NCBI GenBank assembly: GCA_964592155.1
Contig: CAZQDA010000001.1
Location: 17,149-81,148 of the forward strand
Direction: 5' to 3'
Length of the DNA: 64,000 nt
Source of the DNA: an uncultured Christensenella sp.
GTDB lineage: Bacteria; Bacillota; Clostridia; Christensenellales; Christensenellaceae
Shown: positions 3,921-52,540 of the stretch, one piece after another
How the letters are laid out: each line of letters opens with the position of its first letter
Numbering within the stretch: the stretch's first letter is position 1
Notes under the pieces: generated by a model
Told to the model about the DNA's origin: nothing
The model's database searches: none
The model's input: the letters and a program-made list of their open reading frames with translations, nothing else
Position numbers and translations under genes: made by a program

Positions 3921-3942
3921 AAATAAGTATATAACACGCACG

Positions 3943-4052
3943 CAAAAATACTATAAATTATACTTATAAATAAAATATTTAATTATAACTACATTTTTAA
4001 ATATATTTATAATATATCAAAATATCAATTGATAAAAATTAAATTATTTTTG
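3943..4052. promoter_or_regulatory. Divergent Bacteroidota-type promoters (terminase/portal leftward, head operon rightward)
   Basis: TATTTTTG on - strand at 3943-3950 and on + strand at 4045-4052, within a very AT-rich spacer. Confidence 0.55.
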
Positions 4053-4079
4053 TAAAAAATTTAACAAATAAATTTTAAT

Positions 4080-4763: not shown

Positions 4764-4795
4764 TAAACAAAAAAACATTTTAATAATTAAATTAA

Positions 4796-5479: not shown

Positions 5480-5484
5480 GATAT

Positions 5485-6630: not shown

Positions 6631-6632
6631 TT

Positions 6633-7007: not shown

Positions 7008-7357
7008 TAGAGATAGACGAATTTCCTTTCACGTGTGAGTTTTACCAAATGCGAATAGCGGATAAAGATAATCCTTTATCTAAACCCGAAAAAGTAGTTA
7101 CTTATAACGGTAGTTGCGATATACAAATCACAACAAAAGAGATAGGTATGCTTGCGGTTGAATCTGAATATGCTGTTTTTATACCTATAATACCTACTGT
7201 TTTAACAGATGCAAAGGGTGTAGAATATATGCAGATAGATAAGGGTTACAATTTTGAGGGTTTACAGTATGGTCGAAAGATTAAAGGCAGTGTAGTAAAC
7301 GTGCAACCGTCTCAATTAGGCAAGAGTGTAGTATATATAAATAGCGTAAAATCGTAA
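7004..7357 (+). CDS. Head closure / head-tail joining protein
   Basis: Beta-rich 117 aa (CDIQ...EYAVFIP); synteny. Confidence 0.5.
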   Translation: MIEIDEFPFTCEFYQMRIADKDNPLSKPEKVVTYNGSCDIQITTKEIGMLAVESEYAVFIPIIPTVLTDAKGVEYMQIDKGYNFEGLQYGRKIKGSVVNVQPSQLGKSVVYINSVKS

Positions 7358-7851
7358 TGCCACGTAAGATTAAGACTAAGAACGTAACTTTTGATTTAAG
7401 TGCGATAGATGATTTCAAAAAGAAGTTGAGAGTAGAGCTTGTTGAACAAACTACCCAACAACTTATCGAATACGCTAAAAACACTTTGGCAAAGGCGTTT
7501 GTGGAGAGTGAATATGCTAATATAACGTTGAACTTGAAAGACAGTTACGTTTGGGGTGTTTACTTTGACGGTAAGAGAGTTGATTACGGTTTTTTAGGTG
7601 CAAAAGAGGCAACTACTTATGCTATTGAGGATGGGCAACAGATATATGGACGAGAAGAGGCTCAAAAGTTTATAGACAGTTATCAATCACGAGTATCACG
7701 AGGTTGGGAATTAGTTTTTGCGGTAACAACTATCTATGGTGCGTACTTGGAGACAGGTACTAATAGAACTAAATATGTTGTTATATCGTCTATTTTTGAT
7801 GATCTACAACGCGACTTCGGAACCTTAAAACGCATAGAAACTATTATTTAA
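7357..7851 (+). CDS. HK97 gp10-like neck protein
   Basis: Motifs NITLNLKDSY and YGAYLETGT; synteny. Confidence 0.55.
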   Translation: MPRKIKTKNVTFDLSAIDDFKKKLRVELVEQTTQQLIEYAKNTLAKAFVESEYANITLNLKDSYVWGVYFDGKRVDYGFLGAKEATTYAIEDGQQIYGREEAQKFIDSYQSRVSRGWELVFAVTTIYGAYLETGTNRTKYVVISSIFDDLQRDFGTLKRIETII

Positions 7852-23524: not shown

Positions 23525-24379
23525 ATGGAAAATAAGAGGGCTTTTAATTTTAAAGATTTATCAGGAAAAGTTTTTAGTAATTTAACAGTGATTGAATTAG
23601 ATTGCATATCAAATGGGCAAGCTAAATGGAAATGTAAATGTACTTGTGGTGTAATTTGTAGTAAATTAGGTTCACATTTAAGAAGTGGCTCAATAAAGAC
23701 TTGTGGTAAATGTAATAAAATAGAGGATTTGACAGGGAGAAAGTTCGGGAAATTAACTGCTTTAGAGTATGTAAAGAGAGACAAAAATAATTTACCCATT
23801 TGGCTTTGTGAATGTGAGTGTGGAAATATAAAGGAGATACAATCATATACATTAACTTCAAGAGGTCAAATAAGTTGTGGGTGTATGGCTGGAATAAGAC
23901 ATAATATGTATAATAAAAAAATATATAAATTATGGGACAATATAAAAAAGAGATGTAGAGGAACTAATAAGCAATATAAAAAAGATTATTACGATAGAGG
24001 AATAACTGTTTGCGAAGAATGGGTTAATGATATAAATTCATTTGTAGAATGGGCTTATAATAATGGATATAGTGAAGAAAAAACAGAATCAGGGAGAGTG
24101 AAATATACGATAGATAGAATTGATAATAATAAAGGGTATAGTCCTGATAATTGTCGTTTTGTTATTAATGATGTACAACAGAGAAATAGACGAAACAATA
24201 AATATGCTGAATATATTGATGGGTATATATATTGTTTTGTTGATATTGCTAAATTAATTGGTATTAATCCAAGAAGAATAAGTGAGTGTATTCGTAAAAA
24301 TAATTTTCCATACAAAATATTTACATATAGTGAATTAATAGAAAATAATATTTTAGATAAAGTAAAAATGATTATTTAA
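23525..24379 (+). CDS. Free-standing HNH homing-type endonuclease
   Basis: Duplicated DL(S/T)G..F..LT..W.C.C.CG modules and C-terminal TIDRIDNNKGYSPDNCRF HNH motif. Confidence 0.85.
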   Translation: MENKRAFNFKDLSGKVFSNLTVIELDCISNGQAKWKCKCTCGVICSKLGSHLRSGSIKTCGKCNKIEDLTGRKFGKLTALEYVKRDKNNLPIWLCECECGNIKEIQSYTLTSRGQISCGCMAGIRHNMYNKKIYKLWDNIKKRCRGTNKQYKKDYYDRGITVCEEWVNDINSFVEWAYNNGYSEEKTESGRVKYTIDRIDNNKGYSPDNCRFVINDVQQRNRRNNKYAEYIDGYIYCFVDIAKLIGINPRRISECIRKNNFPYKIFTYSELIENNILDKVKMII

Positions 24380-32642: not shown

Positions 32643-33442
32643 ATGATTACAACACTTGAAAGAGCCCAAGAGCTTGCAGAAAAATGGAATGCACTAACCG
32701 ACGATATGGATAGGCTACAATTTCTAAAAGATCATAATACAGAAATGATGGCTGTATTAGATTATGATTGTACAATGGTAGATTTTATATTTGATGATAA
32801 TATTGATTATGAATCGAGAGAATGTATATTTAATATTAATCTTAATGAATTTCATGATTATCATTATTTTTCTACTGGATGCCTTAAACTTTTTGAATTT
32901 GCAGGAATTAAAGCTACTTCACGTTAAAAATTTAATAAAATGAATAAATTTAAAAGTCTCGCTCGAACTAATTTAAAATGCCCTATATGCGGGAGTAGGA
33001 TGTCTATGTTAGGTATTACACCACAAGAGGGAACTTATACCAGCAAGGGCGAAACAAAACCAAAGGATATGCTATTTGCGGCTCGATGTCAAGTTTGTGC
33101 CACAAATATATATACTCCACTTAACGAAGGAAAATCTGTAAAAGATGTTGATGGACGTTGCATTTTAACATGGAAGAAATAACAGGCAATAATAAGATCA
33201 TTTACGACTGTATTTATAGGCACATATCTCACGTTATTTCGATTAATTTTGGAAAGCCTATATTCTACTATATTTGGCTATCAAAATGGATTAAAATGGA
33301 CGATAATTACATTAAATTAAGTTGTAGATGGCTTGTGGATAATGGGTATTTAATTTCCGATATAGTTGGTGAGTATTTGATATTTATGTTGCCTGAAAGT
33401 GAATTTGAGAAAATTAAAAACAAACAAAATAAAAAATTATGA
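32643..33442 (+). other. Three small genes: 32643-32927, 32940-33182 (Zn-ribbon, CPICG...CQVC), about 33158-33442
   Basis: ORF track. Confidence 0.55.
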
Positions 33443-39290: not shown

Positions 39291-41307
39291 CTAACTTACT
39301 ATTCCAATACATTCCCTATTTTTATCATCTTCATTTTTCATAAAGGAAATAAAAGCACCTATTGACATTGTCCCTATTGCATCGTTTAATTGCTCTATTT
39401 GATATTCGCTTTTATCAATATTATCAATTACCGACTGCAACCTAACCATTTCGTCATCTGTTATTCGTTTATTAAACATCTGCATAAATAACATATCAAT
39501 CATTTCTCTGGGCATATCCTTCTCAACAGTTAAGTTTAATTTAATATTTATTTTATCCATAATTTCACACGATTACCGCCATCGTGAGGTTTTAGTTATT
39601 AATATTATTTTAAGCATCTATTTCTGAATACAATTCTTTGCTGCACTTGCAACATTCAACTTCATAATCAACATAAGCATAATCTTGTATATATCCGCAT
39701 TCATCACCTGCATCATAGTCAATCGAATCACTAAATTCTCTGTTTGAATTTATTTCACTCAATCTATTTTCAATACATTTTTTGCAATAGAAGTTATTAT
39801 CCTCTTCGTAATATATCCAATTTGCTAATTCCTTGTCCATAATTTTATTTTAATTAATCTTTCTGCAAAGGTAGTGAAAATTATTGAATATCCAAAATGT
39901 CTATTGAAGATTAATCCGCATAAGCACTCAAAATTGTTTCAATAGCAGTATTTATTTTTTTGTGAATACTAAGTTTTAATTTAGTATTCACCTTATTATC
40001 TGTTATATCTCTAATCATATTATTTACTGCTCTAAGTTCCGATAACATTAGCTCATTATTGAATAGAATTGAATCAAACTTTTTGAAATGCTCATTATAT
40101 CCTTTTTGAATTATGCTCTCTATTTGTTCCTTATCCGCATTGTAGCAAGAAGTAAGATAATCTAATTTACCACGAGTTTTGCCACTATATTCAGATTTAA
40201 AAGGATATGTATTAAAAGCTGTAACATACTTTATCCCACTATGGGTTGAGTTGCCCCATATTTTATTATTCTTTGTCTGTTCATAGCCAACATTCCCCTT
40301 AAATTCCATACCAAGCTCTTTGAACTTATTAGCAACTATATCTAAACACGCTACCTCTCTATTATAAATAAACATAATAGGGTCATTGCCACCATTTATA
40401 TATTCCGAGCTTATATATTTGTTTCCCGTATCAATAACTGACTCTACTATTTCCACAAGATAAGGCTCGCCTTTCAGTGTAATCTCTTTATGTATTGCAG
40501 AGTGAATTTCTTTAAACTTTCTATATTCAAATTCATCTTCAAGCGATTGCCATTTGTATGTTGGCTCATCATCTCTATAATTACTTTCTACTTGAATCCT
40601 TTTGCTTAAAAGTTTATTCTCTGCTTCCACATAAGATTCAACAGAAACTTCTTCCGTCCCATTTTTAAGATAATAAGCGATTACTTTATTTACAAACATT
40701 GAGCAGATGTTATGAACATCTAATACTTGAATTTTTGCCGAATATTGGTCTATATCAACGAGCTTGTCGTCTACTACATATTTACCCCTATAAAGTTCTA
40801 CGGAATAATAATCGGACTCTTTGAATTTAATTGCTTTCATTTTAATTAATTTTAATTGATTATGCCACAAAGGTAATAAAAAAATCCGAAGTACCAAAGT
40901 AATTCGGAATTATTTTTCATAATGTATCATATTATATACAAAACTGCCTATTTTTGTTCATTATTAGATAAGTTATGTTCATTTTCACTGAACTCGATTA
41001 AATATTGAACATATCTGTCTTTTGCTTTATCGTATTCTTTATCCCAATACCATTTATTATACCATTTAGCATTGTCTTGTTTTACCGAGCAATAAAGGTA
41101 TCTGCCATAGATAAATTCATACATAAATATGATAGACAGATTATTAAATACTATTCTCGCCTTATCGCTATCTTTAATTAGCTTTTGAGTAGCCTTTACA
41201 AGTTTTTTGGTTTCTTTTCTGTATGCTCTAATAACTATATACTTAAATCTAAAAGCATAGTATTTAACCTTGAGTATAAAGATTATTGCCTTGATATATT
41301 TTATCAT
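39291..41307 (-). other. Hypothetical genes 39291-39560, 39610-39840 (Cys-pair Zn-binding), 39911-40897, 40948-41307; -7 promoter elements at 39866-39873 and 40868-40875
   Basis: ORF track; CAAAGGTA on + strand (TACCTTTG on -) twice. Confidence 0.6.
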
Positions 41308-42150: not shown

Positions 42151-45100
42151 TCATTTCCTCATCAATTTTTCATTATCACCAAACCAAAATTTACCGTCTT
42201 TATTAAAGCACCAAACGTCTGAAATTTCTCTTAATCGGACAAATTTAGTTACATCTTTCATTATTTTTCTGAATCTTTTATTGGCAGTCCGTTTATCTTT
42301 TTTATCACTACCACCTGTTACTCCGCAGATTGGAGTTTTTCGTTTACTTCGGGTCATCTTTCACAAATTCTTTATGCGGTGTAGTTAAATATTTATGATA
42401 TTTAGTTTTAAGTATATCATAATAATAGTTAGTCTTAACCTCTCCGTTTCTTATCCAAACGCAAGGATATTGCTCAATAAGCTCTTTTATTCTTTCAGTT
42501 CTACTACCTTTTGTCCGTTTAGAATAATACAGCCACGCCTCCCAAAATTGCATTTCAAACTCATTATCTTTTGTAGTCAGCCAAACCGCTATTTGTTTGC
42601 CGAAAAACACAAATGATAAAATAGGATTCCATTCGTGCCTAAACTCGTCATATTTAGTTTTCCAACCGAGAGTAACGAAGTCGAATCCGAATTTGCGGGG
42701 GACTCCTTTTAACCAACCGGTTTTCTCTTTATTTTTAATCCATTTACGCGGCAAGAAGTACGGAGTGCCTATCCTTATATCCCCAAAATAAAATCGCAAT
42801 TTAGGTTTCTTTAGCGGTGAAAAATATACGCCTAAAAACTCGAAATTGTATTTTAGTGAGTTGTATTTTCGTTTAATATATTTTTTCATATTGAGATATT
42901 TTTTCTGTATATCTTTTAAGTGCGACATCAAAAAACTCATCGCAAAAATCCATTAATGGAGTTATTGATGCAGGATATTTCTTACTGTATTCTCGCTTAA
43001 ATAAAACATATTCCTCTATTGTTGTGTGGTCTAAAACAAAGAGTACAAATTTAGACTTATGTTCATTTGGTTTATTTCTATAAGAATCTATATTTTTTTG
43101 AGTTATCTTTATTTCCGCTGATATAGTATCTATATTTTTAGCTTGTTTTTTCATATCGTCCTCTCCAAATGTTCTAAAAGTTCTTGTTTTGTGGCAAAAA
43201 TATCTGATTCATCCACCCATTTTTTAGATGAAGTTAGATAATATTCTTTAATATCCTTATTAAAGTACATAATGTTGTTTTCCTCGTCAAGTTCAAAATC
43301 GCCAGCCAATAATCTAAAACCACCTATTGTTTCAAATTTTAAAAAAGATTTACTTATAATTTTTTGTCCGACATCAAATTTACTTTTTATTTTCATATTA
43401 ATCAATTATTAGTTTTTCTCCGTTTTCTAAAGTTATTTGTATTGTGCAAGAAGCCCTATTTTGTATCTCTTTTATCCACTCCATATATCTTCGTATATGC
43501 CCTAAACAATATTGTTTTTCATTAGCATCAGCCTTTGCATATTTGTTATTCCAAAATTTTATTTCGTCATTAATTAACTCAATAGCTTTTTTAGTATTTC
43601 CGTTATATAGTTTTTCTATTTTCATAACTATTCTTTATTATACGTTTTAACATTGTGTTTTAATTCTCGTGGCACTGAAATTATAATCGGGTATGGAATA
43701 TGGTCAGATATACTTTCAGTTATAAAACTTTTCTTTTTGTAATCCCAATTATTGTAAGGAATAAAAGGGATAATGATGACATTAATTTCATACCCTCTAT
43801 CTCTAATTTCATCTACTGCCCTTTGAATATCACGAATAAAACTATTCTCGCTTATCTCAAACTCGAACAACTGAAACATATCTTTTTTAACTGAGATATA
43901 GATATGGTAGCTGTCGTTTACTATATCTTCATTTAATAGGACTTTTTTCATATCAATAATCAGTTGAAAGTGCCATTTTAATAGTTTCTTCGCCTAAAAT
44001 TTCTATTGCTTGTTGGGCTAATTGTTCGGTTTTGAATCTAACTACTTCAAATTTAGCCGTACCCGCACTATAAGAATATACGTTATCTCCAGCAATAGCA
44101 ATGGCGTAACTTTTTTCAAGGTTTATTTTATCATAAATAGGCGTAAAACTATTATCATTATTTAAGTATTTAGCAACTACTAACAACTTATTTATGGCGC
44201 AAAGCTTTCTTAATTGGTCTTTAGTTACAAAATTAAAATCAGCCGCTTCAGTATATCCCACTCTGTTTTCTATATGAAGAGCCACTTGGCTAACTTCGGG
44301 CATAAATGGTGGGTAATAACGTTCTTTAATTATCGTTTCATAACTAATCTTATTTATTTTCTTAAACACAACCTCATCAAAAGTGCTTTTCTCTTTGTCG
44401 ATTTCGTAGCCGTCTGGTGGCGTGATTTTTAGTGATTTTTCCATAATTATTTTTTATTTTTAGATTCCTTACTACTCAATATACAAGCTATCCCATATCC
44501 AATTATAGTTGGAAAGGCTATTACATAAAACCGCCAATCATTAATTTTAATATCGGCAACTATATTTAGGATAGTACCCAAATAAGCGGCAGTTAAATTA
44601 CCTATCAATGAACTTCCTCTCATCTTATTTCAAATTTAAACTTTCTTTCAATTTATCTGCTAACTCATCGGCAGATGTAACTATTTTTTCAGCAATCAAA
44701 TCAATGAACTGTTGCCCCATATCTTTTTTGATTTTGAATTTAAAACTTTCTTGGTCGCCATTTTCAAATTCAATATAACCATCGTATCTGTCATCTGCTC
44801 TTTCATCTGTGTAGCACGACCAACCTTTCTTAAAGCCGAAGTTGATTGATTTTAATTTCCAATCGTTTTTAATTTTATTCATAGTTTATTTGTTTAGTTC
44901 GGTGAGAAAATTTTGTACATAGTAACAGCATATTTCATCACATATATGTGTTGTGTTAATCTGGCATATTCCTTTATCGCTACGACATGTACACGCTTTC
45001 TTAAATGATTTATACGCCTTATATTTCAGCTCCTGCAACTCTTTGGCGTGGAGTTCTGTGAGTTCGGAAATTTGCTTATTGATATGTATATTAATATCTT

Positions 45101-45224
45101 TTTCAGCTGTTATTAATACGGCCAATAGCCATTTTTTAAAATAGGACTTATCTATAAACTCTCCAGTGTCTTCGCATATTTTATTTATTAAAAGGCTCGC
45201 TACTCGGCTCTTAATTTCGCTCAT
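42151..45224 (-). other. Array of small hypothetical genes (42151-42357, 42344-42940, 42873-43154, 43151-43405, 43398-43625, 43628-43951, 43953-44444, 44625-44882, 44886-45224)
   Basis: Tightly packed co-oriented ORFs. Confidence 0.6.
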
Positions 45225-46213
45225 ATCATTTGTTTTTTAAAGTGGTCGATTAGTTCGGATGGAGTGGATTTAACCCAATTTTTACTCATATTTGACGTGC
45301 AAGTCTCCCAATCTCCAAATTTAATATCTCCTTTATTTGCAGTAATACAATCACAGCCGTCAATATATGACCGAACGCACGTGTAGTAATGGTATCTATC
45401 ATTCTCATCGTTGATAGCGGCTATGGCTTTATAGCAGTCTTTTGATATTTTAATCCAATTATAACCTCCTGCTTTGCCATTCCTAAACATAGCCGCAGCA
45501 ATATGCTTTATTCCCGTTCTTTCTGTCGCCTCCGAAATCGATATAAATACATTTACTACATTGCCATCAATATCTATTTGGGCGACTGGAGTTCCATTAT
45601 TTCGCTGTGATTTTGTCATATTTATTTTTTGTAATTCAGTCCTAATAGCTCCCGTATGTGAATTGGATATTTTTTCATTTCGTGTACCATAGTTATTATT
45701 ATATAAATGATTACACCATTCTAAATTATCAGCATTGTTATTGTGTTTATTTTCATCTTTATGATTGATGCAATCAAAATTATTCGGATTATCTATAAAT
45801 GCACTCGCAACTATTCGGTGTACAAGAATGGTTTTATTTCTCCCATTATTAGATAATATTGCTGTCATATATCCATTATGATTTTGCCTTTGCGAAAGCT
45901 TTTTGGTTGGCAAATACACATTATTACCATTAACAATAAATGACCTCTCTAATGATATGATTTCGCCATCAATAGACACCTTATATATTCCTTCATATCC
46001 AATAACATCACGCCATTCATTGGTTAGGTCATAACTACAATTATGCTTTCCATAACATCTTTTGCAACACATATTATATCCTCTTTTTGTGCTATTTCGC
46101 TTTGAGAACATATATGTTGGTAGCCATTCACGACATTCAGCACAAAGCATTTTACCCTCTTTGATTATAAAATGTTCCGCTATATATTTCCCGTTATTTT
46201 TTACTTTTTTCAT
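45221..46213 (-). CDS. NUMOD4-HNH-NUMOD1 homing endonuclease with N-terminal Zn finger and foreign C-terminal tail
   Basis: EWRDVIGYEGIYKVS (NUMOD4), VHRIVASAF...NHKDENKHNNNADNLEWC (HNH). Confidence 0.88.
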   Translation of the reverse strand: MKKVKNNGKYIAEHFIIKEGKMLCAECREWLPTYMFSKRNSTKRGYNMCCKRCYGKHNCSYDLTNEWRDVIGYEGIYKVSIDGEIISLERSFIVNGNNVYLPTKKLSQRQNHNGYMTAILSNNGRNKTILVHRIVASAFIDNPNNFDCINHKDENKHNNNADNLEWCNHLYNNNYGTRNEKISNSHTGAIRTELQKINMTKSQRNNGTPVAQIDIDGNVVNVFISISEATERTGIKHIAAAMFRNGKAGGYNWIKISKDCYKAIAAINDENDRYHYYTCVRSYIDGCDCITANKGDIKFGDWETCTSNMSKNWVKSTPSELIDHFKKQMI

Positions 46214-46290: not shown

Positions 46291-46886
46291 TTATTTTATT
46301 AGTTCTTTTATTGTGTTTGCGATTATTACGTTCATTGATGCAAGCACTTCAAGATAATCGCTTTCTGTGGCAGCGTGTACATAGTGGCAATGTTCATTAC
46401 AGAACTCTTCGATTGCCTTCCTTACATCACTTTTTACTGCCTCGGCTCGATAAAAACTCATATCCCAATCACGATATTTGAATACAAGCCTGCCTCCGAT
46501 TTCTTGAAAGTGTATCATCTTTACAAAATCACCTCTCAATTTAGCACATAGGGTTGCGTCTGAAAACCCGATAAGCTGGCAGTCGAATATATCCTCAATC
46601 TCTATCGTATGACTTGTATGCGCCGGACGTGTGTATCTTATTGTTTCTTTATTCATATTCGTTTATTTTTCGGTTAAACTTCATACGGATTTTTCGGGAG
46701 GGAGTTGGCATCTATGGCTTCGCCTTTACGATAACATAAAGGATGTAATTCAATAGGTTGAATTTCGAGTAAACCTTGTGCAAGTTGAACTTCTTCAAGC
46801 CTGTCAATAATTTGCATTAATTTTTCTTTCTGTTTTTCTGTCGGTGTCATTGGTTGGTGGTTTTAATTAAATATAGTGCAAAGATA
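46291..46886 (-). other. Genes 46291-46656 and 46674-46850 (58 aa), with leftward promoter element at 46879-46886
   Basis: ORF track and manual translation; TATCTTTG on - strand. Confidence 0.55.
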
Positions 46887-47010: not shown

Positions 47011-47018
47011 TATCTTTG
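47011..47018 (+). promoter_or_regulatory. Promoter of the Cys/Gln-rich island
   Basis: TATCTTTG about 50 nt upstream of 47071. Confidence 0.7.
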
Positions 47019-47070
47019 TCCTTGTAACGTTACAAAAAAAATAATAATTTAAAAATCTAAAAGTAAATTT

Positions 47071-47754
47071 ATGGAATCTGTTGAAAGAGAAATTGACATG
47101 CTCGAAAGAGATATGGACAAAGCGGAACGTAAAGCCCGTGTAGGTCAAGGTTGGGGTATCGCTGGCGCAGTTGCTGGTGGTCTTGCTCTGTTGAATCAGT
47201 GGAATTGCGGTCGCGGTGGCATTCTTAATCTTGGTGGAAATTGTGGTCGCGGATGTGGTTGCGACAATGATGTTTATGTTGCAGGTCAACCTTCGGTTTA
47301 TACCGTGCAGGCTAAAGAGTGTGAGGATGCACTTGCATTAACTCGCTCGATCTATGATAATCGTATCGTAGATATAACCGAGAAAAATGAGTTAGAGCGT
47401 TATCTGTCTAACAAGATTGCTGCTAACGAGGCTAAAGACAATCAAACTGCTTTTGACCTTTACAAGTCTCAAAGAGATGGTTTTGATATTCTTAATAATG
47501 AAATTTCAAAAATTAAGTGTCAGCTTGCAGTAACAGACGCTGTTGCTCCTTGGCGTTATAACTCGCTCAAAGAGATGATTAACATCGAGGCTCAGAAGCG
47601 TTGCTGTGCAGATAATTCTATCGTAACCTATGCTAATGCTACTTTCTATCCGAAAGAAATCGCGAGCATTGTTACTGGAACTACTGTAACTCCTCAGCCT
47701 ACATACAATCCTCTGCCTTGCTGCGGAGATTGCTGTTGCGGCAATATGTTCTAA
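47071..47754 (+). CDS. Cys/Gly-rich protein of unknown function (13 Cys, one hydrophobic segment, coiled coil)
   Basis: GWGIAGAVAGGLALL, NCGRGCGC, RCC and CCGDCCCG; biased codon usage suggests high expression. Confidence 0.8.
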   Translation: MESVEREIDMLERDMDKAERKARVGQGWGIAGAVAGGLALLNQWNCGRGGILNLGGNCGRGCGCDNDVYVAGQPSVYTVQAKECEDALALTRSIYDNRIVDITEKNELERYLSNKIAANEAKDNQTAFDLYKSQRDGFDILNNEISKIKCQLAVTDAVAPWRYNSLKEMINIEAQKRCCADNSIVTYANATFYPKEIASIVTGTTVTPQPTYNPLPCCGDCCCGNMF

Positions 47755-47762
47755 ACAAAATT

Positions 47763-47792
47763 GGGAGGGGAAGAAATATCTCCTCCCTTTTT
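47763..47792 (+). terminator. Internal terminator/attenuator after the first island gene
   Basis: GGGAGGGGA/TCTCCTCCC stem followed by T5. Confidence 0.75.
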
Positions 47793-47813
47793 AACTTTTA
47801 ATAATAAATTATT

Positions 47814-48263
47814 ATGGCGATAAATATTTTTGGAGAAAATACAAGTGCTATACTTGACCCTCAAATGGCTAAATTGCAGGCAGAATATCAAAGACAACTG
47901 CAAGAATTGCACGCACAGAAAATGGGACATCCAATTCAACAACAACCGCAACAACAAGCATTGTGGGTTAAAGTTGATAACGAATTAAGCAATATGCCTG
48001 ATGAATATAAGAAAAAACTTATGGAATCACCAGAGTATATTGAGTTATCTGATAGATTAGGCTATTTAGTACAATCTAAATTAATGCATATGGTTATGCC
48101 TCAAATAGAGAATATGCCTGAAGGTAAGGAGATATTAGACAAACAATATAGTCTTATCAACCTAAGAAAATCATCAATAAAGAAAGAGGTTGATGCCGAA
48201 ATGGAAGAGTTTAGAAAATGGAAACAAGCATCAAATAATAACACTAACAATAACACGAAATAA
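47814..48263 (+). CDS. Gln-rich coiled-coil protein
   Basis: QQQPQQQ tract; helical C-terminus. Confidence 0.75.
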   Translation: MAINIFGENTSAILDPQMAKLQAEYQRQLQELHAQKMGHPIQQQPQQQALWVKVDNELSNMPDEYKKKLMESPEYIELSDRLGYLVQSKLMHMVMPQIENMPEGKEILDKQYSLINLRKSSIKKEVDAEMEEFRKWKQASNNNTNNNTK

Positions 48264-48264
48264 T

Positions 48265-48462
48265 ATGCCAAATACAGAATTAGCAACCATACATAGTCTG
48301 ATTAAAACTATTGACAATGCAATAGGTAATCTAAATGAGAGAGTTAAAAAACTCGAATCTAAAGAGCAGACAGCAGAACCGAAAGTAGCAAAAGCAAAAG
48401 AGGTAGGTGTAGTTGAAACTACCAATACCACACCTGCAAAAACTAATAAAACAGTGAACTAA
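48265..48462 (+). CDS. Small coiled-coil protein
   Basis: ATG at 48265, coupled to the next gene. Confidence 0.6.
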   Translation: MPNTELATIHSLIKTIDNAIGNLNERVKKLESKEQTAEPKVAKAKEVGVVETTNTTPAKTNKTVN

Positions 48463-48881
48463 TGACAGCAAAAGAACAAATATTATCGACCGTAAGTGAA
48501 TGGGCAGATAAGCAGATTAATAGTCTTGTAGCATCTAATCCTCGAATGAGTATGTTTGCTCCACGATTAAAGCAAGGTTTAGAGAATTACATTGATAAGA
48601 ACGAAAGTAAGATAGATAATATGCTTCTCTTTGTAACAGATAAAGATGGCAAATTAGATATTACCGACATGTTTGACGAAGGTATGCGTATGTTTCAAGA
48701 AATGCCTGTTCAAACTCACAAATTAATGGGTCTTAATACTCATGTAGGTCAAGGTGCAATAGAGATTAAAATGCCTGATAATTTCTTGGTATCTATGTTT
48801 ATGGGTAATACTGGGTCTATTAAGATAACAACTGCCGATATAATGGAATTAAAACAAATGTTAATGGCTAAGGCTATTTAA
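48462..48881 (+). CDS. Hypothetical protein (island)
   Basis: ORF track. Confidence 0.75.
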   Translation: MTAKEQILSTVSEWADKQINSLVASNPRMSMFAPRLKQGLENYIDKNESKIDNMLLFVTDKDGKLDITDMFDEGMRMFQEMPVQTHKLMGLNTHVGQGAIEIKMPDNFLVSMFMGNTGSIKITTADIMELKQMLMAKAI

Positions 48882-48883
48882 TT

Positions 48884-49111
48884 ATGACAAATTACACTTG
48901 CTCAAATAAGCCGTTGTGCTGTATTTGTCAGACTACACAGGATATATATAAACTTGTTAAGAATTTAAAGTGTGAATATAATATCGACCCAATAATGTCA
49001 ATATTAGAACAAATGCAGTCGGATATTAACGAGCTTAAATTGCAGTTTGAGTGTGCGTGTGAGTGCGATGATAATGGGCAAGGTAATGATGAAAATACTG
49101 AACAATTATAA
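48884..49111 (+). CDS. Small Cys-rich protein (8 Cys in 75 aa)
   Basis: CCIC and CACEC motifs flanking a coiled coil. Confidence 0.7.
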   Translation: MTNYTCSNKPLCCICQTTQDIYKLVKNLKCEYNIDPIMSILEQMQSDINELKLQFECACECDDNGQGNDENTEQL

Positions 49112-49122
49112 AAAATAAGAAT

Positions 49123-49656
49123 ATGAAAAAAGGACTAAGAGAAATAATAGAAGACTATAAGAAACGTGGCATTGGGAATGAATCTCATATGTGGAAAATG
49201 GTTGATATGATAGATGATGAATTAATGAAGCCCCTAAAGGAGCATCACCCTAATATATATTGGGATTTTATGCGTGATATTCACGAGATTTATGAGGGCG
49301 AACATTTCAATCAAGAATTTGCAGAGTGGGAGGTATCTCAAATGCACCACAAAGGAACTGACGGAACACTATATAAAGGTCAAAAATGGGGATTAGAGCA
49401 AACTACTCCTATATTTATAAAGATTAAATCTCAACTCACAAAGCCATATAATGAGTTTGACTTCTATGTAATATTGCATTCAATTTGGCACGATTGCTGT
49501 GTTTTGTATCACAAATGGAAACCCGAATATACTGAAGAGCAAATGACCCAAATGTATATAGACGCTACCATAAATTGGCTAAACGATGAAGATTACGGCT
49601 CTAAAGATACAGGCAAGGCGTGGAGGTATTTTGAGGATATGCACGATATAGACTAA
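49123..49656 (+). CDS. Aromatic/acidic helical protein (island)
   Basis: YWDFMRDIHE...HFN..FA...VSQM...YNEFDFYV...WLNDED...KAWRYF. Confidence 0.75.
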   Translation: MKKGLREIIEDYKKRGIGNESHMWKMVDMIDDELMKPLKEHHPNIYWDFMRDIHEIYEGEHFNQEFAEWEVSQMHHKGTDGTLYKGQKWGLEQTTPIFIKIKSQLTKPYNEFDFYVILHSIWHDCCVLYHKWKPEYTEEQMTQMYIDATINWLNDEDYGSKDTGKAWRYFEDMHDID

Positions 49657-49730
49657 AAAAATTAAATTTTTCATTTATATCTCAACTATTTTTCGTATCT
49701 TTGCATATTAATAACTTAAAAATAAATAGT

Positions 49731-50540
49731 ATGCAAGAAGAAATTTGGAAAGACATTATTGGTTATGAGGGATTGTATCAGATTAGTAATTTAGGTAGGG
49801 TTAAATCATTACCTAAAAAATTAAAATGCAGGAATGGATTTTTTAGGATTAAAACAGAGAAAATAATACCAAATAGAATTAACAATAAGGGATATTTTAC
49901 TATCACGTTATGGAATAATTATAAATGTAAAACATTCCTTACTCATAGATTGATAGCAATTCATTTTATTCCTAATATAGAAAATAAACCATGTATAGAC
50001 CACATAGATACAGATAGGCTGAATAATAGCATTGATAATTTACGATGGTGTACTCATAAAGAAAACATGAATAATCCAATTTCTCTTATAAATAATAGTA
50101 CATCTAAGAAAGCATGCTCTTCAAGAACTAATAAAACAAAGAAAGAAAGAGGTCGTAAAACTGCTCCAAAAGATGTGTGCAGGTATGATTTACACGGGAA
50201 ATATATAGATACATTTTATAGTGCTACTGATGCGGAAAACAAAATAGGTATATCACAATCTGATATATCAGCATGCTGTCTAAAGAAAAAACCAAGTGCT
50301 GGTGGATATTTGTGGGCTTTCAGCGGGGATATTCCAAATGAATATAGACCATATCAATCTAAATGTAAAAAAGTAATACAATATGATTTACATGGTAGCT
50401 TAATTAAGGAATGGGATTCATTTAAAGAAGCCACTGAAATAACTGGGGTTAAAAATATATATAAATGCTGTGTTGGATTAAGAGCCAAAGCAGGTGGATA
50501 TAAATGGAAATATAAAGGAGAAGAAAATGCCGAAACGTAA
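49731..50540 (+). CDS. NUMOD4-HNH homing endonuclease with own promoter (TATCTTTG at 49696-49703)
   Basis: EEIWKDIIGYEGLYQISNLGRVKS; THRLIA...DHIDTDRLNNSIDNLRWC; two NUMOD1-like repeats. Confidence 0.9.
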   Translation: MQEEIWKDIIGYEGLYQISNLGRVKSLPKKLKCRNGFFRIKTEKIIPNRINNKGYFTITLWNNYKCKTFLTHRLIAIHFIPNIENKPCIDHIDTDRLNNSIDNLRWCTHKENMNNPISLINNSTSKKACSSRTNKTKKERGRKTAPKDVCRYDLHGKYIDTFYSATDAENKIGISQSDISACCLKKKPSAGGYLWAFSGDIPNEYRPYQSKCKKVIQYDLHGSLIKEWDSFKEATEITGVKNIYKCCVGLRAKAGGYKWKYKGEENAET

Positions 50541-50697
50541 ACCAACAAAGAAACAAAAGGCTAAAGTAGCGAAAGTGATGTCTGAATATGGGAGCGGCAA
50601 GCTAAAATCGAGTAGCGGACGAAAAATAACCTCTCAACGGCAGGCAATCGCGGTAGCACTCAGTGAGGCAAATTTAGCCCGTAAAAAGAAAAAATAA
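50527..50697 (+). CDS. Small basic protein (resembles the DUF6496 family, from recall)
   Basis: KVAKVMSEY..GKLKSSSGRKITS.RQAIAVALSEA. Confidence 0.65.
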   Translation: MPKRKPTKKQKAKVAKVMSEYGSGKLKSSSGRKITSQRQAIAVALSEANLARKKKK

Positions 50698-50698
50698 T

Positions 50699-50923
50699 AT
50701 GTGTCAAAATTGCACTTGCGCTCATAAGGTAGAGCCTAAAACAGTTAGAGAATTGTTGAAAGAATTGAATAGCGATATGGCTTATGCAGAATTTGAAAGC
50801 GTAAAAGAGAAATTAGCCATTGCTATTGAAAAAGAAAAGAGTGTCGAATTTAGTAAGTTGCACGATAAAAATAACGAGATACTAACTAAAATTAAAGAAC
50901 TTACTTATCTTATTGTTAAATAG
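50699..50923 (+). CDS. Hypothetical protein with N-terminal CxxCxC
   Basis: ORF track. Confidence 0.6.
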   Translation: MCQNCTCAHKVEPKTVRELLKELNSDMAYAEFESVKEKLAIAIEKEKSVEFSKLHDKNNEILTKIKELTYLIVK

Positions 50924-50960
50924 AAAATGCCCCTTTCTTTCGATTGGGGCATTGCTTTTT
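50924..50960. terminator. Bidirectional terminator between convergent units
   Basis: AATGCCCC/GGGGCATT stem with A-run and T-run flanks. Confidence 0.65.
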
Positions 50961-51536
50961 TACCGCTTCTTTTTCTTTTTAGGCTTTGTTTCTACACATG
51001 TAACCATCGTTTCTGTAACAGCTGTTTCGCTATACGAGCAGTCGCTACATCCTGTTTTAGGCTCTTTGAGCAATGCTATCTCCGCGTTAGCGTCATTAAG
51101 TTCGTCTTGAACATTAGACATTTTTACTTGTAATGCCTTGTATTCCTTTTCGAGTTTCATGCACTTCTCGATAGCCTCTCCACAATCTTTTTCTGATACC
51201 TTTAGGTTTTTAATAGTTTTAGAAAGCTCCTTTTCGAGGCTTGAAACTTTCAATTCAGCATCTGTCTTGTCCGTAACCAACTTGTTGTACGTACTTGTTT
51301 TAATAATTTTCATAGTTAATTTTTAATTAAAGTTATTTTTTATTTGTAATACTTGATTTAAACAATAGTCCCGATAGCAGTCCTAATCCCAGTGCCTGCC
51401 AAAAGTTAATTTTTATTAGTCCGAAAATTAGTGGCATAAGCCAATTCCATAGCCACATAATAGGTAGAGCAAGTAGTAGTGCCCCGATAGCGATAGTTAC
51501 AATAGCAATAAGCGTCAATCCAAAAATCTCTTTCAT
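50960..51536 (-). other. Coiled-coil protein (50960-51313) and small two-TM membrane protein (51333-51536)
   Basis: ORF track. Confidence 0.6.
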
Positions 51537-51537
51537 T

Positions 51538-52104
51538 TTATTTAATTGTTATAAGTTGTTCCGAAAAAGGTAGTCCTTCAATAAACTTACAAAATTGTCG
51601 CCATTGAGGTAATCTATGGTCTTTACGTTGAAAATAAATTCTACGCAAAGTCTGATAGCTAAACATTTGAATGCGTTTCTGCATAGTACCCTCGGTAAGA
51701 TTAGACTTCATTTCTACAAGTTCATCTTCCGACATTCCTTGACCTTGGATGTGCATAGTGCTCTCACTACTCAATCTATCTGTTCCGATTCTATATGGGT
51801 CAATTTCTTGCCAAATGTAGCGCGGTGCATTTATTTCAAGATATACATTAATACCCCTAATAACTTTTGCGTGCTCGTCGCCTCTTTTGATGAGAGTAGA
51901 CATTAATGTGAGATCTTTTTCGTCAATGTCTATATCGCCACTAATTTCAATATGATTATTGTTACTATACCATTGATCGAAATTAACATATCCCCTGCTT
52001 CGACACTCTCTACCAAATGGCAATCTCAATGCTTTAAGCGCAGACACAAATCCACTAATCTCAATCAACTCTATCTGAATCTCTTTGTTCATTTTTAAAT
52101 TCAT
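51538..52104 (-). CDS. Divergent ThyX-like (flavin-dependent thymidylate synthase fold) protein
   Basis: H.KV.R...V...I.APRYIWQEID.YR....SSESTMH pattern; canonical RHRx7S motif absent. Confidence 0.5.
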   Translation of the reverse strand: MNLKMNKEIQIELIEISGFVSALKALRLPFGRECRSRGYVNFDQWYSNNNHIEISGDIDIDEKDLTLMSTLIKRGDEHAKVIRGINVYLEINAPRYIWQEIDPYRIGTDRLSSESTMHIQGQGMSEDELVEMKSNLTEGTMQKRIQMFSYQTLRRIYFQRKDHRLPQWRQFCKFIEGLPFSEQLITIK

Positions 52105-52540
52105 TAAATTTTTTCATCACTCTATTGTAATACCATTGACCTTTTTTAGGGTCTTTTTTATGCGCCCAAACACCTCTCGAATGTTGCTTTGATCCTATCT
52201 CAAAACACTTCGTAGGATTGTATTTATTCTGCATGTAGTCAAACATCAATCTGCATCTATCCAAATTATGTCTATCAGAAAGGGTAAAAACATGATCACT
52301 CTGAATCTTATTTACTTGTGCGACATATCTTTCGTCCGATTGGATATATCCTACACATTCCCCATTAACAGCATAAGCATTAAACTGACTCTCAACAGCG
52401 ACTATTGAGTAGAAAAAGTAATTCCAATTTATTTCCTCGTTAAGTATATGCTCAAAACTTGATTGCTTTAACATATACATATTTAGAGTGTTCTTGCATG
52501 ACGTTCCAATTAAGATACACATAATAAGGAATAGGCGCAT
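52061..52540 (-). CDS. Lytic transglycosylase / lysozyme-like protein with signal sequence
   Basis: IVAVESQFNAYA...VGYIQ SLT-like catalytic motif. Confidence 0.65.
   Translation of the reverse strand: MRLFLIMCILIGTSCKNTLNMYMLKQSSFEHILNEEINWNYFFYSIVAVESQFNAYAVNGECVGYIQSDERYVAQVNKIQSDHVFTLSDRHNLDRCRLMFDYMQNKYNPTKCFEIGSKQHSRGVWAHKKDPKKGQWYYNRVMKKFNEFKNEQRDSDRVD

What the first reader, a model, noticed from the sequence alone, without database searches (positions are those of the whole stretch)
47011..50923. Self-contained, oppositely oriented island of Cys-rich and Gln-rich proteins: candidate undescribed phage module
Seen: a rightward unit with its own TATCTTTG promoter sits inside an otherwise leftward 25-kb arm. 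It encodes a 227-aa protein (13 Cys, NCGRGCGC, C-terminal CCGDCCCG, one Gly/Ala hydrophobic stretch, coiled coil), then an internal terminator, a Gln-rich coiled-coil protein, a 65-aa coiled coil, a 139-aa protein, a 75-aa protein with 8 Cys, a 177-aa aromatic protein, an HNH insertion, a basic DUF6496-like peptide and a CxxCxC protein, ending at a bidirectional terminator. None has a recognisable enzyme motif. The terminator after gene 1 implies gene 1 is made in large excess, as for a structural subunit plus accessory factors. Inference: a self-assembling, disulfide- or metal-crosslinked structure (coat, inclusion or oxidative shield), loosely analogous to Cys-rich spore coat/exosporium proteins. 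From memory, similar gene strings recur in gut phages without a known function; this is unverified.
Basis: partly seen in the sequence, partly recalled or inferred. Interest (0 to 1): 0.78.

Follow-up and report, generated by a model that had tools for sequence, protein, structure and literature searches.

The report
Conserved gut-phage operon beside lysis genes
The island is real and holds a widespread but uncharacterised phage operon (a Cys-rich, glycine-zipper coiled-coil protein plus two or three partners) that in over 100 gut phages of Bacteroidota and Clostridia, including the prototype crAssphage, lies just after the cell-lysis genes, so a role at the cell envelope late in infection is more likely than a coat or oxidative shield.

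Summary
The nine genes are not one unit in evolutionary terms.

- **Core:** g1 (227 aa) and g4 (139 aa) co-occur in 148 of 151 related loci. A third gene follows them: DUF7841 (g6 here, 71 loci) or a ferritin-like protein (59 loci). g2 is added only in Bacteroidota phages.
- **Lineage-specific:** g3, g5, g8 and g9.
- **Insertion:** the HNH gene is a homing-endonuclease insertion, absent from the same site in a close relative.
- **Distribution:** the core equals gp61-gp58 of prototype crAssphage. It also occurs in Bacteroides phages BF1-TP2 and DAC16/23, and in prophages of Gemmiger and Bacteroidales.
- **Position:** wherever an endolysin was recognised, the core lies a median 0.9 kb downstream on the same strand.
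- **Hairpin:** a GC-rich hairpin follows the g1 stop in 84-89% of 122 distinct loci, which supports excess g1.
- **Dispensable:** five deletion variants exist in crAssphage-like genomes.
- **No known relatives:** g1 and g4 match no known family, and the confident g6 model matches no solved fold.

Best reading (about 0.4): a late, lysis-linked envelope accessory. The coat or oxidative-shield idea has no support.

The parts
47011..47018 (+). TATCTTTG box (Bacteroides-type -7 promoter element TAnnTTTG) for the rightward unit. A mirror copy at 46879-46886 (-) faces the leftward gene.
   Evidence: 18 copies in the window against 5.1 expected. That TAnnTTTG is the Bacteroides -7 consensus is my own knowledge. 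Promoter activity was not tested.
47071..47754 (+). g1: 227-aa Cys-rich protein with an N-terminal Gly-zipper hydrophobic segment (residues about 24-42), a helical hairpin (76-180) and a conserved Cys-rich tail (RCC...NATFYPK...YNPLP...CCGDCCCG). It is the core gene of the module and the homologue of crAssphage gp61.
   Evidence: (749 relatives).
47763..47787 (+). GC-rich hairpin plus T-run directly after the g1 stop, acting as an internal terminator or attenuator.
   Evidence: dG -16.9 kcal/mol. An equivalent hairpin is present in 84-89% of 122 distinct related loci.
47814..48263 (+). g2: 149-aa Gln-rich helical protein, homologue of crAssphage gp60. It is found only in the Bacteroidota-phage versions (30 of 151 loci).
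48265..48462 (+). g3: 65-aa small protein. Only positional equivalents exist in close relatives (L009, L013, BF1-TP2 gp38).
   Evidence: No significant sequence match.
48462..48881 (+). g4: 139-aa protein, the near-universal partner of g1 (148 of 151 loci) and homologue of crAssphage gp59. It has no Pfam family.
48884..49111 (+). g5: 75-aa protein with 8 Cys (CCIC...CxCxC), lineage-specific (L008, L009, L013).
49123..49656 (+). g6: 177-aa DUF7841 protein, homologue of crAssphage gp58. It is the third core gene in 71 loci and is replaced by a ferritin-like protein in 59 loci.
   Evidence: pLDDT 95.5. One search found no PDB fold match. One search found only other DUF7841 proteins..
49696..50540 (+). 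Free-standing homing endonuclease (NUMOD4 - HNH_3 - NUMOD1) with its own TATCTTTG box at 49696-49703. The ORF runs from 49701 and the likely ATG is at 49731. It is an insertion into the unit.
   Evidence: It is absent between g6 and g8 in L009.
50527..50697 (+). g8: basic 56-aa DUF6496 peptide. The ORF is open from GTG 50494.
   Evidence: 28.4 bits, cut-off 24. It is 71% identical to L009 8526-8696.
50699..50923 (+). g9: 74-aa protein starting MCQNCTC, lineage-specific (a weak match in L008).
50926..50953 (.). Bidirectional terminator hairpin shared with the converging leftward genes.
   Evidence: dG -16.1 and -15.6 kcal/mol, with T-runs on both strands.

Best explanation
**Shown.** The island carries a mobile accessory operon that is widespread in gut phages.
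- Its core is g1, g4 and a third gene, which is DUF7841 (g6 here) or a ferritin-like protein. g2 is added in Bacteroidota phages.
- The operon is normally the last part of the late transcription unit, directly after the lysis cassette.
- A conserved hairpin follows g1.
- The operon can be lost.

**Inferred.**
- g1 is made in excess over its partners, because the hairpin terminates or stabilises most transcripts.
- g1 inserts into the cytoplasmic membrane through its glycine-zipper segment, N-terminus inside, and oligomerises through that zipper and its helical hairpin.
- Its invariant Cys-rich tail then faces the cell wall side.
- g4 and g6 have no signal peptide and act from the cytoplasm at lower dose as regulators or chaperones.
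- Together they tune or complete envelope breakdown at the end of infection. This would be a holin/antiholin-like or lysis-timing device that works in hosts with one membrane or with two.

In this window the operon has been moved, inverted and given its own host-type promoter. It has also picked up an HNH endonuclease and four lineage-specific small genes.
For: **Conserved order.** g1, g2, g4 and g6 match crAssphage gp61, gp60, gp59 and gp58, BF1-TP2 gp40, gp39, gp37 and gp36, and cr11_1 gp55-57.

**Co-occurrence.** The Bacteroidota-type and Clostridia-type g4 profiles converge on the same 149 proteins. g1 and g4 are together in 148 of 151 loci.

**Lysis neighbours.**
- Endolysin and holin lie directly upstream in Clostridia-type phages.
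- In crAss-like loci a spanin-like lipoprotein, a crAss001 gp28-like protein and a gp30-like endolysin lie upstream.
- The same holds in a Bacteroidales prophage (L097) and an Oscillospiraceae contig (L157).
- An endolysin was recognised in 59 loci, and in 57 of them it lies within 3 kb of g1. In nearly all it lies upstream on the same strand, median 0.9 kb.
- The relatives L008 and L013 have a Glucosaminidase two or three genes away.

**Hairpin.** Median dG is -20.8 kcal/mol after g1, against -8.7 for shuffled sequence and -7.5 after g4. The stems differ in sequence between loci.

**Topology.** There are 2.1 Lys+Arg before the hydrophobic core and 0.8 after it, averaged over 117 family members.

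**Dispensable.** Five different internal deletions occur in crAssphage-like genomes.

**Host range.** Prophages in Gemmiger (one membrane) and in Bacteroidales (two membranes) carry it.
Against: - No function was tested, so the link to lysis rests on gene neighbourhood only.
- In the window itself no endolysin could be confirmed next to the island, and the unit has its own promoter.
- The phages that carry the module already have holin-like and spanin-like genes.
- The hydrophobic segment is weak for a membrane helix: Kyte-Doolittle 1.1 here, 1.0-2.0 in the family.
- Six to thirteen conserved Cys in an exported domain is unusual for Clostridia (my own knowledge of cysteine exclusion in exported proteins). 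This favours a cytoplasmic, metal-binding tail.
- The end of a prophage next to the integrase is also the classic place for genes expressed in the lysogen.
- The g1 tail is modelled with low confidence.
- RNA data gave no usable expression signal.
Confidence: 0.4

Rival explanations
1. The unit is a moron-type accessory acting on the host envelope for the phage's benefit outside lysis. Examples are superinfection exclusion, receptor masking or protection of the infected or lysogenic cell. g1 would be the membrane effector.
For: The window copy has its own promoter and terminators and is inverted relative to its neighbours. In temperate phages it lies between the lysis genes and the integrase. 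A small HTH or sigma-region-4-like gene precedes g1 in 59 loci. The module is dispensable.
Against: In virulent crAss-like phages the module lies inside the late operon, between the lysis and capsid genes. Exclusion proteins are usually lineage-specific, whereas the g1 tail is 60-70% identical between phages of two phyla. Codon-position GC is like the rest of the phage. There are no PADLOC hits.
Confidence: 0.2
2. A cytoplasmic, metal-binding complex that may sit on the inner face of the membrane. The Cys clusters of g1 would bind Zn or an Fe-S cluster. g4 and DUF7841 (or the ferritin-like protein) would be partners in a regulatory, metal or redox task late in infection.
For: None of the proteins has a signal peptide and the hydrophobic segment is weak. 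CxC and CC clusters are typical of metal-thiolate sites. The alternative third gene gives weak ferritin, rubrerythrin and MbfA-type hits with ExxH motifs. Earlier annotators labelled DUF7841 as 'sigma factor-like'.
Against: The ferritin and sigma similarities are all below the curated cut-offs. The charge bias fits a membrane protein with its N-terminus inside. This reading gives no reason for the constant position next to lysis genes.
Confidence: 0.12
3. One reading: g1 is the subunit of a self-assembling structure crosslinked by disulfides or metal (a coat, an inclusion or an oxidative shield), and the other genes are assembly factors.
For: The conserved hairpin implies excess g1, as for a major subunit followed by accessory genes. 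g1, g5 and g9 are Cys-rich. The g1 tail is invariant yet unstructured as a monomer, as expected of a segment that folds on assembly.
Against: No protein resembles coat or exosporium proteins. g5 and g9 are lineage-specific. The module is deleted in otherwise near-complete genomes. The hosts are strict anaerobes, where disulfide crosslinking is unlikely (my own knowledge). The genomic context is lysis genes, not morphogenesis genes.
Confidence: 0.08
4. A virion component, as in the GenBank label 'putative tail protein' for crAssphage gp61 and 'capsid protein' for the g4 homologue of cr11_1.
For: In crAssphage the genes lie between tail-fibre genes and tail-needle or capsid genes.
Against: The labels rest on no cited evidence, and no PHROG or Pfam structural family matches. 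In Clostridia-type long-tailed phages the genes come after the lysis cassette, far from the structural genes. The same genes occur in podovirus-like and long-tailed phages. They are deleted in near-complete genomes. crAss001, whose virion has been solved, showed no homologue in the first 50 kb of its genome, the only part searched, which includes its lysis and capsid region.
Confidence: 0.07
5. A product released at lysis that acts on other cells, like a bacteriocin. g1 would carry a Cys/Thr-rich C-terminal peptide and the downstream genes would give immunity or maturation.
For: A structural gene followed by an attenuator hairpin and then accessory genes is the layout of lantibiotic and colicin operons (my own knowledge). 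The tail is rich in Cys and Thr, with about six Cys in about 48 residues. A sigma-region-4-like gene lies upstream, as uviA does beside the holin-like uviB (and my own knowledge).
Against: No modifying enzyme, protease or exporter lies next to it in any locus. In this family the tail is the conserved part, whereas in modified-peptide precursors the core peptide usually varies.
Confidence: 0.05

Closest known systems
Carjivirus communis (prototype crAssphage) genes KP06_gp61-gp58, and Bacteroides phage BF1-TP2 gp40-gp36
   Same: They are true homologues in the same order: g1/gp61/gp40, g2/gp60/gp39, g4/gp59/gp37, g6/gp58/gp36 (BLASTP E 1e-8 to 1e-27). BF1-TP2 also has a hairpin after its g1 gene.
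   Different: In crAssphage the genes lie inside the late operon with no hairpin after gp61. g3 and g5, the g8 and g9 genes and the HNH gene are missing there. The tail of gp61 lacks the DNSIVTYANATFYPK stretch. No function has been tested for these genes. The label 'putative tail protein' has no evidence behind it.
Phage T4 holin T with its antiholins RI and RIII (lysis timing and lysis inhibition)
   Same: The resemblance is in architecture and logic only. T is about 218 aa, with its N-terminus inside, one membrane segment and a large outside domain containing essential Cys. It works with small soluble partners on either side of the membrane, and those partners are dispensable (my own knowledge). 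g1 is 227 aa with a charge bias for N-in, and the module is dispensable.
   Different: There is no sequence or Pfam relation. The T4 genes are scattered, not an operon. The phages here have other holin-like genes. Pore formation by g1 is untested.
Pinholin S21-68 of phage 21 and other glycine-zipper channel formers
   Same: g1 carries a (G/A)xxxGxxxG zipper in its only hydrophobic segment: G25, G29, A33, G37. The motif is conserved between the two host phyla. In S21-68 such a zipper lines the heptameric pore (my own knowledge).
   Different: The pinholin is a small protein with two membrane segments and no outside domain. The g1 segment is less hydrophobic.
i-spanins (lambda Rz, P2 LysB) and crAss001 gp27/gp28 'lysis regulatory proteins'
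   Same: These also have an N-terminal membrane anchor, a coiled-coil stalk and Cys residues, and lie in the lysis cassette. The cr53_1 record carries the labels 'LysB/FtsL-like' (gp68) and 'spike glycoprotein' (gp66, the g1-like protein) on genes flanking its DUF7841 gene.
   Different: The g1 family also occurs in prophages of Gemmiger and other Oscillospiraceae, which have no outer membrane. No outer-membrane lipoprotein partner is embedded in or next to g1. crAss-like loci carry a separate spanin-like lipoprotein. There is no homology to crAss001 gp27 or gp28.
Pfam DUF7841 (PF25223) and DUF6496 (PF20106)
   Same: g6 and g8 pass the curated cut-offs.
   Different: Both are families of unknown function. 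The g6 model (pLDDT 95.5) matches no solved structure (best E 0.8, TM-score below 0.3).

Membership tests
g1-g4-DUF7841 module (crAssphage gp61-gp58 type) | Homologues of g1, g2, g4 and g6 in that order on one strand | tested here: met
   BLASTP against crAssphage, BF1-TP2 and cr11_1. HMM survey of 151 loci.
g1-g4-DUF7841 module (crAssphage gp61-gp58 type) | Stable hairpin directly after the g1 stop codon | tested here: met
   Window hairpin dG -16.9 kcal/mol. 84-89% of 122 distinct loci have one.
Pfam DUF7841 | Score above the gathering cut-off (25.2 bits) | tested here: met
   g6 scores 74.8 bits, E 8.6e-21. The fold matches other DUF7841 models only.
HNH homing endonuclease (I-HmuI-like) | NUMOD4 + HNH_3 + NUMOD1 domains, and present or absent at the same site in relatives | tested here: met
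   Domains. PHROG 59, E 1.6e-42. L009 has g6 directly followed by g8.
Holins (any Pfam or PHROG holin family) | Sequence membership | tested here: not met
   g1 has no Pfam, PHROG or NCBIfam hit.
Holins (functional class) | At least one true membrane-spanning segment | tested here: inconclusive
   Best 19-residue Kyte-Doolittle mean is 1.12 here and 1.04-1.97 in the family. The charge bias fits N-in.
Holins (functional class) | Encoded next to the endolysin | tested here: inconclusive
   Met in relatives. No endolysin was confirmed beside the island in this window.
Holins (functional class) | Timed lethal permeabilisation of the membrane | not testable with these tools
   Needs expression and complementation assays.
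Spanins | Restricted to phages of hosts with an outer membrane, and paired with an outer-membrane lipoprotein | tested here: not met
   Prophages in Gemmiger (202-kb contig) and many Oscillospiraceae carry the family. No lipobox ORF lies in or after g1.
   No Pfam, NCBIfam or PDB-sequence hit for g1. No Pfam hit for g5 or g9.
Virion tail protein (GenBank label of gp61) | Similarity to a known structural family, or presence in virions | tested here: not met
   No structural PHROG or Pfam hit. No fold match. Presence in virions cannot be tested here.
Moron | Own promoter and terminator | tested here: met
   These are sequence signals only.
Moron | Base composition different from the surrounding genome | tested here: not met
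   Island GC is 0.340 against 0.330 for the window. Third-position GC is ordinary.
Known anti-phage defence systems (PADLOC) | HMM hit to a defence protein | tested here: not met
   Only a sub-threshold hit for g5, E 0.009.
Modified-peptide (lanthipeptide or ranthipeptide-like) precursor | Maturation enzyme encoded next to it | tested here: not met
   None is present in any inspected locus.

The most novel reading that the evidence does not exclude
g1-g4-DUF7841 is a previously unrecognised class of phage late function shared by phages of hosts with one or two membranes. g1 would be an abundant membrane-anchored oligomer whose invariant Cys-rich tip engages something common to both envelope types, such as peptidoglycan or its lipid-linked precursor. 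It would do so with or without a bound metal cluster. This would be a new step or control point in phage lysis, carried by the most abundant human gut phage.
Probability: 0.15. Interest if true: 0.85.

Novelty: new variant of a known kind. Interest (0 to 1): 0.62.

Why it matters
- The module is common. The g1 family has at least 749 protein clusters and more than 377 IMG/VR loci. It is present in prototype crAssphage and in many Clostridia prophages.
- None of its proteins has a known function or a known fold.
- Its fixed place after the lysis genes in two phyla, its conserved dosage hairpin and its recurrent loss point to a tunable late function. That function could set lysis timing or burst behaviour of dominant gut phages.
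- It can be tested now, because three cultured Bacteroides phages carry it: BF1-TP2, DAC16 and DAC23.
- The labels 'putative tail protein', 'capsid protein' and 'sigma factor/ubiquitin-like' on homologues in public records have no evidence behind them and should be treated as unknown.

Tried and rejected
- **Near-identical DNA in GenBank phages.** Only the HNH gene matched.
- **Exact-peptide scan of IMG/VR with g1 alone.** It found nothing. The alignment-based scan worked.
- **Family libraries for g1, g2, g4 and their crAssphage and Clostridia-type homologues.** Pfam, PHROGs, NCBIfam and PADLOC gave no family.
- **Profile search of PDB sequences with g1 and g6.** Only chance-level hits.
- **g1 structure model.** Mean pLDDT 64, with the tail unmodelled. 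Its fold search returned nothing.
- **g6 fold search against PDB.** Nothing below E 0.8.
- **HD-phosphohydrolase idea for g6.** I considered it because of an H...HD...D pattern. I rejected it because the His of the 'HD' pair is not conserved and no HD fold matched.
- **Direct profile-profile comparison of Bacteroidota-type and Clostridia-type g4.** Weak (probability 12%). Iterated HMM searches did merge the two types.
- **DUF7841 against the ferritin-like third gene.** No relation.
- **crAss001.** No homologue in its first 50 kb.
- **Calling this window a crAss-like phage.** I assumed this at first and rejected it. It has a 2065-aa tape measure protein and is a long-tailed phage.
- **Endolysin next to the island.** The 159-aa lipoprotein-like ORF at 52061-52540 has an ES...G..Q motif but only a sub-threshold NCBIfam hit, and it does not match the Glucosaminidase of L008. 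The match of 39291-39560 to a crAss001 gp28-like protein is coiled-coil noise, because that ORF has no membrane segment.
- **Expression.** No RNA run holds the window. 'RNA' runs holding a crAssphage-like locus gave flat contigs of tens of kb, which cannot be told apart from DNA carry-over.
- **Literature.** No paper mentions DUF7841 or BF1-TP2. Reviews mention crAss lysis genes only in general terms.

Full report
**1. Observation**

The nine + strand ORFs exist as described. From about 39.9 kb to the end of the window, every other ORF of at least 100 aa is on the - strand. GC skew flips sign across the island.

TATCTTTG lies at 47011-47018, 52 nt before the g1 start. A mirror copy at 46879-46886 on the - strand faces the leftward 58-aa gene, so this is a divergent promoter region. 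The 8-mer occurs 18 times in the window against 5.1 expected, and no shuffle reaches 18. Many copies lie 25-55 nt before ORF starts in the matching orientation. The motif fits the Bacteroides -7 consensus TAnnTTTG (my own knowledge). Activity was not tested.

The hairpin after g1 (47763-47787, dG -16.9 kcal/mol, then TTTTT) and the bidirectional hairpin (50926-50953, dG -16.1 and -15.6 kcal/mol) are both real. The composition claims hold:
- g1 has 13 Cys, 5.7% against 1.8% window-wide.
- g5 has 8 Cys in 75 aa.
- g2 is 10.7% Gln.
- g6 is 14.7% aromatic.
- g8 is 31% Lys+Arg.
- g9 starts MCQNCTC.

**2. What kind of phage this is**

The exact g1 protein lies on a 97,063-bp contig. The window encodes a 2065-aa tape measure protein and a large terminase, and a ribonucleotide reductase in the leftward arm. 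It is therefore a long-tailed phage and not a crAss-like podovirus. The promoter motif points to a Bacteroidota host. Only four gut DNA metagenomes of one study hold the sequence.

**3. The island is a conserved module plus additions**

*Family searches.* These gave only three results: DUF7841 for g6, DUF6496 for g8, and NUMOD4/HNH_3/NUMOD1 for the endonuclease.

*Family sizes.*
- g6 has 280 representative clusters at 50% identity.
- g4 has 158 word-indexed relatives, all unnamed.

*Order of homologues.* BLASTP shows the same order elsewhere:

| window | prototype crAssphage | Bacteroides phage BF1-TP2 | cr11_1 |
|---|---|---|---|
| g1 | gp61 | gp40 | gp55 |
| g2 | gp60 | gp39 | gp56 |
| g4 | gp59 | gp37 | gp57 |
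| g6 | gp58 | gp36 | (none) |

*Close relatives.* L009, L008 and L013 keep the inverted island among leftward genes.
- L009 has g1-g2-g3-g4-g5-g6-g8-g9 with no HNH between g6 and g8, so the HNH gene is an insertion. It also has its own TATCTTTG at 49696.
- g3, g5, g8 and g9 are found only in these close relatives.

*Survey of 151 loci.* I surveyed 80 IMG/VR loci and 72 genome loci; g1 lay on the + strand in 151 of them. Iterated HMMs merged the Bacteroidota-type and Clostridia-type g4 proteins into one set of 149.
- g1 and g4 are together in 148 of 151 loci.
- The third gene is DUF7841 in 71 loci and an unrelated, weakly ferritin- or rubrerythrin-like protein of about 100 aa in 59 loci. The two protein sets share no member, and one locus carries both.
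- g2 occurs in 30 loci.
- L084, L099 and L157 combine Clostridia-type g1 and g4 with DUF7841.

**4. Context**

*Clostridia-type temperate phages.* The order is endolysin, holin(s), a small HTH or sigma-region-4-like gene, then g1, g4 and the third gene, then the integrase. The endolysins are of several types: M15_3, GH25, and Amidase_2 with SLH.

*About 25 crAss-like loci.* The order is as follows:
1. a lipoprotein with a C-terminal membrane segment (u-spanin-like);
2. a crAss001 gp28-like protein;
3. a gp30-like L,D-carboxypeptidase;
4. a protein with four membrane segments;
5. a 99-aa HTH protein;
6. a zincin or an amidase;
7. g1, g2, g4, g6;
8. a gp31-like protein and the major capsid protein.

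*Integrated prophages.* A Bacteroidales prophage on a 207-kb contig (L097) has a holin-like gene, an M15-like endolysin, a u-spanin-like gene and then g1-g2-g4-g6 near the integrase. A Gemmiger prophage on a 202-kb contig (L099) has HTH-g1-g4-DUF7841.

*Distance to the endolysin.* With only ten endolysin seeds, which gives a lower bound, 59 loci had a recognisable endolysin. In 57 of them it lies within 3 kb of g1, and in nearly all it lies upstream on the same strand, at a median of 0.9 kb.

*Other relatives.*
- L008 and L013 have a Glucosaminidase two or three genes from the island on the other strand.
- cr53_1 has a holin, a LysB/FtsL-like gene, DUF7841 and then a 304-aa g1-like protein.
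- crAss001 showed no homologue in the first 50 kb of its genome. Its lysis genes gp27-gp30 directly precede gp31 and the capsid gene.

*This window.* I could not confirm an endolysin beside the island.

**5. Anatomy of g1 and its partners**

*g1.*
- It has a short charged N-terminus followed by a conserved motif, YASKG, and then a Gly/Ala zipper. The zipper is G25, G29, A33, G37 here.
- A Gly-rich linker and a helical hairpin follow. The hairpin is modelled with confidence for residues 76-180.
- The tail carries the near-invariant residues E173, R177, C178, C179, D181, N182, Y187, N189, F192, Y193, P194, K195, Y212, N213, P214, C218 and C222. It is 60-70% identical between phages of the two phyla.
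- The hydrophobic segment is borderline for a membrane helix.
- The charge bias, 2.1 Lys+Arg before the segment and 0.8 after it, fits an N-in, C-out orientation.

*Partners.* g2, g4 and g6 have no signal peptide. The g6 model is very confident (pLDDT 95.5, pTM 0.88). It is all-helical with a small hairpin. It matches no PDB fold and only other DUF7841 models in the viral library.

**6. A conserved hairpin after g1**

The gap after g1 has a median length of 49 nt. In 122 distinct loci the best 40-nt fold within 60 nt of the g1 stop compares as follows:

| region | median dG (kcal/mol) | share at or below -15 |
|---|---|---|
| after the g1 stop | -20.8 | 84% |
| same sequence shuffled | -8.7 | 5% |
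| inside the g1 coding region | -11.4 | 28% |
| after the g4 stop | -7.5 | 8% |
| after the third gene's stop (DUF7841 or ferritin-like; the end of the unit) | -13.4 | 46% |

The stems differ in sequence between loci, so the structure itself is under selection. Examples are GGGAGGGG.., GGGGCGGC.. and GAATGGCATTGC... Bacteroidota versions carry T-runs and Clostridia versions often do not. The hairpin may therefore terminate transcription, protect the 3' end of the g1 message, or both. Either way g1 should exceed its partners. This is inference.

**7. Mobility and dispensability**

- In L009 a group I intron splits g1 inside the codons of the Gly-zipper (Rfam RF00028, 93 bits).
- The window has homing endonuclease genes inside the island and just to its left, at 45221-46213.
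- In crAssphage-like genomes, five different deletions remove parts of the module:
  - L234 loses everything from mid-g1 through g6.
  - L242, L243 and L246 (94-95.5 kb contigs) fuse the g1 N-terminus to a DUF7841 remnant.
  - L244 fuses g1 to a g4 remnant.
- The protein clusters P0245 and P0268 are such fusions.
- The module is therefore not essential for propagation. These are metagenome assemblies, so this inference needs confirmation.

**8. Interpretation**

*Shown:* a conserved, mobile, dispensable operon. It spans two host phyla, is placed next to the lysis genes, and has a dosage hairpin.

*Inferred:* g1 is an abundant membrane protein that oligomerises through its glycine zipper and coiled coil, with its Cys-rich tip outside. 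g4 and g6 act from the cytoplasm. Together they modulate or complete envelope breakdown.

The nearest analogies, none of them a homology, are T4 holin T with RI and RIII, the glycine zipper of pinholin S21-68, and i-spanins. A spanin role proper is excluded by the Gemmiger and Oscillospiraceae hosts.

The main weaknesses are these:
- The evidence is from gene neighbourhood only.
- The membrane segment is weak.
- The conserved Cys would be unusual in an exported Clostridial protein.
- The prophage-end position is shared with lysogen-expressed accessory genes.
- No confirmed endolysin lies beside the island in this window.

I put the lysis-linked reading at about 0.4. The rest is unknown.

**9. 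Novelty and score**

The genes are already in databases as hypothetical proteins, as a DUF, or with labels that have no evidence behind them. I found no paper on them. As far as my searches show, the following have not been described:
- the module as a unit;
- its spread across two host phyla;
- its fixed position after the lysis genes;
- the conserved hairpin after g1;
- the intron in g1 of a relative;
- the recurrent deletions.

If the lysis-linked reading is right, this is a new variant of a known kind of system. If the tail engages a universal envelope target, it would be a new kind. Interest: 0.62.

Noticed in passing
L009 5699-5943 (relative of the window phage, SRR10912415 contig): A group I intron (Rfam RF00028, 93 bits, E 9e-25) interrupts the g1 homologue inside the codons of the conserved Gly-zipper segment. 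The window copy is uninterrupted.
   Followed up: partly
window 45221-46213 (-) and 49701-50540 (+): Two related NUMOD4/HNH_3 homing endonuclease genes lie close together, one just left of the island and one inside it. A 95-nt stretch of the inner one is 87% identical to endonuclease genes of the PhiCrAssBcn (Kehishuvirus) phages.
   Followed up: partly
L234, L242, L243, L244, L246 (IMG/VR crAssphage-like contigs); proteins P0245, P0268: Five different internal deletions of the gp61-gp58 module create g1::DUF7841 or g1::g4 fusion ORFs, some in contigs of 94-95.5 kb. P0268 instead joins a tail-fibre-like N-terminus to DUF7841.
   Followed up: partly
L003 7631-7867, L005 7717-7929, L010 5650-5886, L099 5584-5778 and 59 loci in all; 99-aa HTH (cluster c12) in crAss-like loci: A small HTH gene sits just upstream of g1 in many loci of both phylum types. 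It resembles sigma-70 region 4 weakly (TIGR02937 E 0.007; PHROG 'late transcriptional activator' E 0.005). It could be a dedicated regulator. The window has none.
   Followed up: partly
window 50960-52540 (-): The converging leftward genes are a 117-aa coiled-coil protein with a poly-Lys end, a 67-aa protein with two or three membrane segments (PHROG 705/2169), a 188-aa protein (PHROG 6721) and a 159-aa ORF. The 159-aa ORF has a lipoprotein-like N-terminus and an ES...G..Q motif. They occupy the same position as the membrane/coiled-coil protein and the Glucosaminidase of L008, but no lysis function could be confirmed.
   Followed up: partly
window 39610-39840 (-), 44886-45224 (-), 32940-33182 (+), 23525-24379 (+): Several other ORFs in the window are also Cys-rich (6-8% Cys), so high Cys content is not unique to the island in this phage.
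   Followed up: no
L006 (cr53_1, NC_055889) 4956-7691: This TAG-recoded crAss-like phage has in-frame TAG codons throughout its holin, LysB-like, g1-like and neighbouring genes. Its 304-aa gp66 ('spike protein/glycoprotein') has the g1 layout: a Gly-rich hydrophobic segment, a coiled coil and a GCGCGC end. BLAST finds no similarity to g1.
   Followed up: partly
L009 1-2732 (-): The close relative carries NAMPT/NAPRTase and a phosphoribosyl-pyrophosphate synthetase-like gene (NAD salvage) a few kb from the island.
   Followed up: no
L167 (Bacteroides phage DAC16, MT074137) 3839-5586: The 178-kb cultured B. thetaiotaomicron phages DAC16 and DAC23 carry a clear g1 homologue (DAC16_158, family HMM E 1e-28). 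A 160-aa gene follows it and resembles the L008/L013 variant of g4 by eye only. The region lies among tRNA genes, not next to recognisable lysis genes.
   Followed up: partly
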